Below, piece after piece: positions 35,476 to 35,810 of a stretch of DNA of 64,000 nt. The DNA lies in NCBI GenBank assembly GCA_964016885.1, contig OZ024742.1, forward strand, positions 5,580,001 through 5,644,000. Reading direction: 5' to 3'. The DNA comes from Eledone cirrhosa (lineage: Eukaryota). The notes below the pieces were generated by a model. That model was not told where the DNA came from and made no database searches. It saw nothing but the letters and a program-made list of their open reading frames with translations. Numbering within the stretch: position 1 is the first letter of the stretch; each line of letters opens with the position of its first letter. Both the position numbers and the translations under genes were made by a program.

Positions 35476-35561
35476 AGCAGTAGCAAGCCGTGGGAGGGAC
35501 CGTCCTGACGAAGGCCAGTCAAGCCTGAAATGCATAGACGATTGACCCCTTTGCTTCTGCT
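35476..35561 (+). ncRNA. Type I hammerhead ribozyme with loop I-loop II pseudoknot
   Basis: CGTC CTGACGA(35505-35511) AGGC-CAGTCAA-GCCT GAAA TGCA TA GACG. Extended stem I AGCAG/CTGCT, AGCAA/TTGCT, GGG/CCC. Loop II GTCAA is complementary to TTGAC (35542-35546). Predicted cleavage after 35536. Confidence 0.92.
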
Positions 35562-35810
35562 GGACACCACCAGAGGGCGTTAGCCCCGGTGTTTGCATAG
35601 CTACGGCTTCCTAAAACCGTATTTCTTAAGAAATACGAAATTTCTATACATATTGTATGAAGCTATGCTTGAAACGAAATCTTATTTCTTATATATATAT
35701 ATATACATATATATAAATGTATAAATTTATATATATATATGCATGTATAAATTTACACCCCCCTCCCACCCCCACACACACATATATATCTATCTATATA
35801 TATATATCTA

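What the first reader, a model, noticed from the sequence alone, without database searches (positions are those of the whole stretch)
35476..35609. Intact hammerhead with one clear and a second possible pseudoknot
Seen: perfect core. Loop II GTCAA (35518-35522) can form 5 Watson-Crick pairs with TTGAC (35542-35546) in the stem I internal loop. The opposite strand AAGCCGTGG (35485-35493) is complementary over 9 nt to CTACGGCTT (35601-35609), with hairpin ACACC..GGGC-GTTA-GCCC-C-GGTGT in between. TGCATAG at the cleavage site recurs at 35594-35600. Established: loop I-loop II contacts accelerate natural hammerheads. Inference: this is a ~135-nt structured RNA, possibly with switchable cleavage. 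It lies ~0.7 kb upstream of the candidate exon at 36238 on the same strand, so it could cut a host pre-mRNA.
Basis: partly seen in the sequence, partly recalled or inferred. Interest (0 to 1): 0.75.

Follow-up and report, generated by a model that had tools for sequence, protein, structure and literature searches.

The report
Decayed copy of ribozyme jumping repeat
This self-cutting-RNA motif is one mutated copy of a short repeat present well over a thousand times in this animal genome, likely a known kind of mobile element spread by Penelope-type enzymes, and its two proposed knots are chance changes that its sister copies do not share.

Summary
The hammerhead core is real and every coordinate checks out. 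It is not a lone regulatory RNA: it lies in a 323-bp unit (35368-35690) whose core pattern occurs 1,390 times in the genome (control 0). Across subfamilies helices I and II and a downstream hairpin covary. The two pseudoknots do not. The TTGAC needed for the five-pair knot is in 5 of 289 copies with the same loop. The middle pair of the 9-bp helix is broken or gapped in 60 of 64 aligned copies. This copy has six changes that weaken stem I and is predicted to misfold. The family fits animal non-LTR retrozymes. Its insertions carry the Penelope footprint: 5' truncation, partial tandems, head-to-head inversions, (TA)n targets, and two 3' ends about 37 nt apart, one at each end in 26 of 30 scorable inverted insertions. 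This copy is such an insertion. No host gene, expression or cleavage was shown. The scan has reported the same reading before on other DNA, including this genome.

The parts
35331..35342 (.). (TA)n tract, left flank of the insertion
   Evidence: sequence
35344..35366 (-). short inverted arm of the same element (unit positions 263-284), ending at 3' end site A
   Evidence: local alignment score 34; 0 of 3000 random 24-mers reached it
35368..35690 (+). one full 323-bp retrozyme unit, ending at 3' end site B
   Evidence: cut-site-to-cut-site period 322-339 bp in dimers
35472..35565 (+). long extension of stem I (35472-35480 with 35557-35565; 35483-35487 with 35550-35554; 35492-35495 with 35545-35548), damaged in this copy
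   Evidence: about 93% of cells paired per helix in 64 copies; four of the six copy-specific changes (35473, 35475, 35545, 35550) fall in these helices
35499..35542 (+). type I hammerhead: helix I 35499-35504 with 35537-35542 (C-A mismatch at 35500/35541 in this copy), core CUGACGA, helix II, GAAA, palindromic helix III, predicted cut 35536/35537
35516..35522 (+). loop II; last A kept in 94 of 97 copies, likely partner of U1.7 (35543, kept in 93 of 97)
   Evidence: contact described in PMC11875169 passages
35575..35586 (+). hairpin GGGC-GTTA-GCCC, covarying between subfamilies
   Evidence: helix 8
35595..35668 (+). predicted 8-bp helix 35595-35602 with 35661-35668; accounts for the second TGCATAG and overlaps the 3' strand of the proposed 9-bp pseudoknot
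   Evidence: at least 7 of 8 pairs in 36 of 46 copies, no two-sided change among the commonest types
35654..35690 (+). 37-nt tail between the two preferred 3' ends (site A about 35653, site B about 35690)
   Evidence: 54 and 47 of 121 outer ends
35690..35713 (.). (TA)n tract, right flank
   Evidence: sequence

Best explanation
The motif is the type I hammerhead of one mutated genomic copy of a 323-bp high-copy repeat, likely a non-LTR retrozyme that a Penelope-type reverse transcriptase/endonuclease inserted into a (TA)n tract. Shown: copy number, unit length, covarying helices I and II, insertion architecture, rarity of the pseudoknot bases. Inferred: active source loci make tandem transcripts; two hammerheads pair their palindromic helix III, cut after H17, and the roughly 323-nt monomer closes to a circle; a Penelope protein cuts both strands of a (TA)n target and primes reverse transcription at two internal sites 37 nt apart, 117 and 154 nt past the cut site, giving opposed arms. 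This copy is predicted to fold poorly, has no tandem partner, and likely cuts little or not at all. The family's loop I-loop II contact is likely the usual U1.7 to last-A contact, not a five-pair helix.
For: 2,957 candidates for 201 bp; 1,390 versus 0 core matches. Canonical structure on 64 copies: 93.2% of cells paired, 111 two-sided cells, 0 of 500 shuffles as high, slid controls 35-51% paired; helix II pair 3 is G-C in 37 and A-U in 27, helix I pair 5 is C-G in 31 and U-A in 24. Position 17 is A, C or U in 97 of 97. TTGAC 5, TTGTC 284. Helix I probability 0.23 here against 0.98 in 7 of 7 sisters. Eight real monomers fold as circles at z -2.9 to -6.1, GC 0.40-0.45. Of 91 insertions 30 are head-to-head, 32 tandem (21 are both), 0 tail-to-tail; 67 of 121 ends run into (TA)n against 10.8% background. 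One A end plus one B end in 17 of 19 and, predicted beforehand, 9 of 11 new ones (p 0.033). RT/GIY-YIG-type elements abound in the genome.
Against: No cleavage, expression or circle was observed. Rfam gave no hammerhead hit. Covariation counts sequences from a few subfamilies, so independent events are few. No autonomous partner sharing sequence with the unit was found in 11 PLE-type loci (L062-L072) or in the wider stretches. Pfam found no family in three PLE peptides; the assignment rests on Atlas features and recalled motifs. Site B coincides with the end of my query and site A contains TA-like letters, so both end classes are partly shaped by method; 19 of 49 inverted insertions could not be scored. 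Copies within one insertion are not closer than the nearest other locus (3 of 20 tandem, 9 of 42 inverted pairs), so a circular template is not shown. RNAalifold on its own did not recover helix III or the outer stem I extension.
Confidence: 0.85

Rival explanations
1. This copy was co-opted: its private changes create real pseudoknots that make a fast or switchable ribozyme cutting a host pre-mRNA.
For: Core is intact; five loop II pairs and a 9-bp helix are possible; pseudoknots stabilise about 40% of hammerheads (PMC3088659 passages); 36060-36425 is single-copy with an acceptor-like site and a short open frame; 44% of retrozyme copies are intronic in X. tropicalis.
Against: Six differences from sisters in 145 bp look like ordinary decay and break stem I pairs; no covariation; helix I 0.23, helix II 0.31, 9-bp helix 0.14 in the nested ensemble (which cannot model pseudoknots); neighbouring long frames are satellites that switch frame repeatedly.
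Confidence: 0.04
2. The unit is only the terminal repeat of an unidentified autonomous Penelope-like element, and the copies are 5'-truncated remains, not a separate RNA element.
For: The insertion footprint is Penelope-like; Xenopus retrozymes are homologous to PLE terminal repeats.
Against: Of 71 copies that start at the unit's 5' end, 39 are preceded by the unit's own 3' end and 4 by other unit sequence; the 28 others show, by eye, TA tracts, diverged unit ends or unrelated DNA, with no shared coding flank. Hammerhead-like motifs beside PLE ORFs are of the minimal kind and unlike this one.
Confidence: 0.08
3. Compatible with the best explanation: the whole family uses a short two- to three-pair Watson-Crick contact between loop II and the UUG after helix I, of which the first reader saw an extended version.
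For: 35520/35544 is C-G in 30 and U-G in 30 of 64 copies; 35521/35543 is A-U or G-U in 55 of 64.
Against: Changes are one-sided only; 35521/35543 is broken in 9 of 64; the flanking pairs compete with helix I and its extension; score not above shuffles.
Confidence: 0.2

Closest known systems
Metazoan non-LTR retrozymes (Cervera and de la Pena 2020, PMC7229834; Li, Clavereau, Pollet 2026, bioRxiv 10.64898/2026.07.22.740005)
   Same: Canonical type I hammerhead in a 150-450 bp non-coding unit, GC under 50%, many copies, tandems, predicted self-paired circle, PLEs in the same genome.
   Different: Mostly monomers, partial tandems and head-to-head inversions in my sample rather than long arrays; 7-nt loop II; the inversion and two-end footprint is not described in the parts I read.
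Axolotl HHR_Amex1 / newt satellite hammerhead (PMC7229834)
   Same: Very weak helix III capped by a palindromic loop, 330-bp unit; there 6% monomer cleavage in 1 h and efficient dimer cleavage.
   Different: Sequence relationship not tested; activity here untested.
Penelope-like elements and their insertions (PMC8557442, PMC11167929, PMC4209133)
   Same: 5' truncation, partial tandems, inverted 5'-truncated copy, 30-40 bp tail at one end, (TA)n bias, internal reverse-transcription start at two sites downstream of a hammerhead.
   Different: No RT or endonuclease ORF in the unit; canonical rather than minimal hammerhead.
Pseudoknotted hammerheads (Perreault et al. 2011, PMC3088659)
   Different: There the pairing is conserved and rescued by compensatory mutation; here the fifth pair is in 5 of 289 copies and nothing covaries.

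Membership tests
non-LTR retrozyme | canonical type I hammerhead (helix I 6 bp, helix II 4 bp, short palindromic helix III) | tested here: met
   64 of 97 copies have all six helix I pairs, this copy five
non-LTR retrozyme | unit of 150-450 bp, GC below 50% | tested here: met
   322-339 bp, GC 0.40-0.45 in 8 monomers
non-LTR retrozyme | many copies, tandem arrangement | tested here: met
   1,390 core matches; 32 of 91 insertions tandem; no long array in my sample
non-LTR retrozyme | no coding capacity | tested here: met
   no stop-to-stop frame of 60 aa or more lies within 35368-35690; two frames only touch its 5' edge
non-LTR retrozyme | highly self-paired circular monomer | tested here: met
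   prediction only: z -2.9 to -6.1, 57-64% paired
non-LTR retrozyme | conserved loop 1-loop 2 contact bases | tested here: inconclusive
   U1.7 93 of 97 and last loop A 94 of 97 kept; the other type I contacts were not mapped
non-LTR retrozyme | target-site duplication longer than 4 bp when present | tested here: inconclusive
   both flanks are (TA)n
non-LTR retrozyme | absence of primer-binding site and polypurine tract | not tested
   not examined
non-LTR retrozyme | self-cleavage and expression as circular RNA | not testable with these tools
   needs bench work
Penelope-like element, insertion footprint | 5' truncation, partial tandems, inverted 5'-truncated copy, microsatellite target | tested here: met
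Penelope-like element, insertion footprint | 30-40 bp tail at one end only | tested here: met
   ends 37 nt apart; one of each in 17 of 19 and 9 of 11 scorable inverted insertions
autonomous Penelope-like element | RT plus GIY-YIG ORF between the repeats | tested here: not met
   none in the unit; PLE fragments near 9 of about 100 loci show no fixed position or strand
pseudoknotted hammerhead | conserved, covarying pairing between stems I and II | tested here: not met

The most novel reading that the evidence does not exclude
A canonical-hammerhead retrozyme is copied by a Penelope protein dimer that cuts both strands of a (TA)n target and starts reverse transcription at a different site for each strand, 37 nt apart on a circular RNA. 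The strict one-A-one-B pairing of inverted insertions would then be a genomic record of how retrozymes move and of how the Penelope tail arises, testable in the existing in vitro Penelope system.
Probability: 0.45. Interest if true: 0.55.

Novelty: new member of a known kind. Interest (0 to 1): 0.27.

Why it matters
The locus itself is ordinary: a decayed repeat copy. The family adds modestly to an open question. The papers I read infer that Penelope-like elements mobilise animal retrozymes from co-occurrence and sequence kinship; here the insertion ends themselves carry the Penelope footprint, and they name two candidate start sites that can be tested in vitro. The scan has noted this footprint before on other DNA.

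Tried and rejected
Rfam: no hammerhead match. Autonomous partner: the PLE-type peptide next to L015 led to a large family whose loci lack the unit in 11 of 11 other loci; the pair of copies 5.1 kb apart at L108 is a local duplication around a LINE-type RT frame, not a PLE between terminal repeats. Pfam and PDB sequence searches of PLE peptides gave nothing. Circle versus multimer template by within-insertion divergence was inconclusive. A giant mucin gene hosting the ribozyme in an intron was considered because the satellites read as Thr-rich frames; rejected because the frames switch repeatedly. A switch through the second TGCATAG was rejected because position 17 varies while the downstream copy stays. 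Literature: four searches; none listed a paper on inverted retrozyme insertions, and 'inverted' and 'truncated' do not occur in the main text of PMC7229834. Supplements were not read and may hold this family or such insertions.

Full report
Observation. The motif has the ordinary type I order: helix I 5' strand, CUGACGA, a 4-bp helix II with a 7-nt loop, GAAA, a palindromic helix III (AUGCAU), the cut after A35536, helix I 3' strand. Rfam did not detect it and the 146-nt region folds no better than shuffles (z -1.19).

It is a repeat. The window lies in a 3.0-Gb genome. A 201-bp query gave 2,957 candidates, with the best copies at 93-96% identity. A core pattern has 1,390 exact matches against 0 for the reversed control, a lower bound on copy number. 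Comparing loci defines a unit at 35368-35690 that joins head to tail with itself; cut-site spacing in dimers is 322-339 bp.

What is conserved. I collected 97 distinct copies from the loci fetched up to (L062-L072 left out) and aligned 64 of them, chosen by hand to span subfamilies and avoid large indels. The hammerhead with a long stem I extension and a downstream hairpin has 93.2% of cells paired and 111 two-sided changes, 0 of 500 shuffles as high. The clear two-sided changes are in helix I pair 5, three pairs of helix II and the hairpin; they come from a few subfamilies, so they are few events. The outer extension is kept but changes little, and RNAalifold alone recovered helix II, most of helix I and the hairpin but not helix III or the outer extension. 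Position 17 is never G.

The pseudoknots fail the same test: 6 two-sided cells, 75 of 500 shuffles as high. The U-A pair that completes the five-pair knot is unpaired in 60 of 64 copies; genome-wide, 5 copies have TTGAC and 284 have TTGTC after the same loop. One base of the knot, T35542, is the sixth pair of helix I. The middle pair of the 9-bp helix is broken or gapped in 60 of 64; the young subfamily can still form 8 of 9 pairs, but its 5' strand is held in the stem I extension and its 3' strand overlaps a predicted 8-bp helix with 35661-35668. Four of the five knot pairs remain possible in most copies, so a short family-wide contact is not excluded. U1.7 and the last loop II A are kept in 93 and 94 of 97 copies, the two bases of the Hoogsteen contact described for natural hammerheads (PMC11875169 and PMC6155905, passages).

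This copy is damaged. It differs from the majority of 36 young sisters at 35473, 35475, 35489, 35541, 35545 and 35550. Two of these create the proposed knots; five break or weaken stem I pairs. Predicted helix I probability is 0.23 against 0.98 in 7 of 7 sisters, helix II 0.31 against 0.96-0.99 in 6 of 7 (the program cannot fold pseudoknots). No second copy lies in the window by the core scan or in 10 kb on either side, so there is no partner in cis for the dimer fold that such a weak helix III needs (PMC4209133 parts 1-2 of 4; PMC7229834 parts 2-3 of 6).

How the family moves. In 89 non-redundant loci, 91 insertions held the core: 50 scored single, 11 tandem, 9 head-to-head, 21 both, none tail-to-tail (arms under 35 bp are missed, including this copy's own). 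Of 121 outer 3' ends, 54 fall near unit position 286 (site A) and 47 near 323 (site B); 67 run into (TA)n against 10.8% of random 16-mers. In 30 inverted insertions, 17 had one A and one B end, 2 had two A ends, 11 had an end elsewhere. I wrote down the prediction and fetched 19 more: 9 AB, 1 AA, 1 BB, 8 unscorable (p 0.033). The window's insertion is of this type, with a 23-bp inverted arm ending at A and the full unit ending at B, between two (TA)n tracts. These are the features listed for Penelope-like insertions, including a 30-40 bp tail at one end only (PMC8557442, passages), which in vitro reflects two internal start sites of reverse transcription (PMC11167929, parts 1-2 of 4). That paper also found that hammerhead cleavage was not needed for insertion in vitro. 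Copies read through the cut site, so the template was a circle or an uncut multimer; divergence within insertions did not tell these apart. Site B is also the end of my query, which limits the precision of that class.

Partner. RT/GIY-YIG-type fragments are abundant (53,805 candidates; Atlas neighbours with PF26215 on 17-76% and PF01541 on 28-35% of members; Pfam itself found nothing; catalytic motifs read by recall). Their nearby hammerhead-like motifs are minimal and unlike this one. No element sharing sequence with the unit was found, in a small sample.

Host gene. 36060-36425 is single-copy. An acceptor-like AG at 36236-36237 is followed by a short open frame; the other two frames close early. 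The neighbours are satellites that change frame repeatedly. A host transcript is neither shown nor excluded.

Comparison and verdict. The family meets the testable features of animal non-LTR retrozymes. A 2026 preprint (parts 1-3 of 5 read) already argues that these are non-autonomous Penelope derivatives; in it 1 of 9 tested dimers cleaved. Pseudoknotted hammerheads are also known (PMC3088659, passages), so even a real knot would not be a new kind. Earlier notes of this scan reached the same family-level reading in this and other genomes; I looked them up after forming mine, and they are not independent support. Verdict: new member of a known kind, interest 0.27.

Noticed in passing
window 33268 (-) and 34443 (+): Inverted pair of hammerhead-like motifs of the minimal Penelope kind about 1.2 kb apart, similar to motifs beside PLE ORFs in L117, L121 and L126; an AT-rich stretch lies between them and (TA)n outside.
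   Followed up: partly
window 34993 (-): Another hammerhead-like core, resembling motifs at L117:1114 and L118:5643; part of a repeat shared with several loci.
   Followed up: no
window 22006-23571 (-): A 522-codon stop-to-stop frame of ordinary composition between two satellites; looks by recall like a DNA-transposon protein.
   Followed up: no
window 6.6-20.7 kb, 24.4-29.2 kb, 36.4-64 kb and on to about G000:C3:5651500: Very long strand-skewed satellites (CAC/CAA type; 24-bp AAC/AGT type) with higher-order repeats of about 3.3 kb; they read as Thr-rich frames but switch frame repeatedly.
   Followed up: partly
L122:1972-3700 (G000:C3, about 9 kb past the window end): PLE-type RT and endonuclease region with a 343-codon open frame and inverted flanking repeats.
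   Followed up: partly
unit position about 215 (window 35583-35587) in many loci, e.g. L005, L037, L043, L055: The C run in the hairpin varies from 4 to about 17 bases between copies, even within one insertion.
   Followed up: no
G000:C1:143348620-143796131: Seven same-strand copies spaced about 58-60 kb or a multiple of it, suggesting a large tandem duplication.
   Followed up: no
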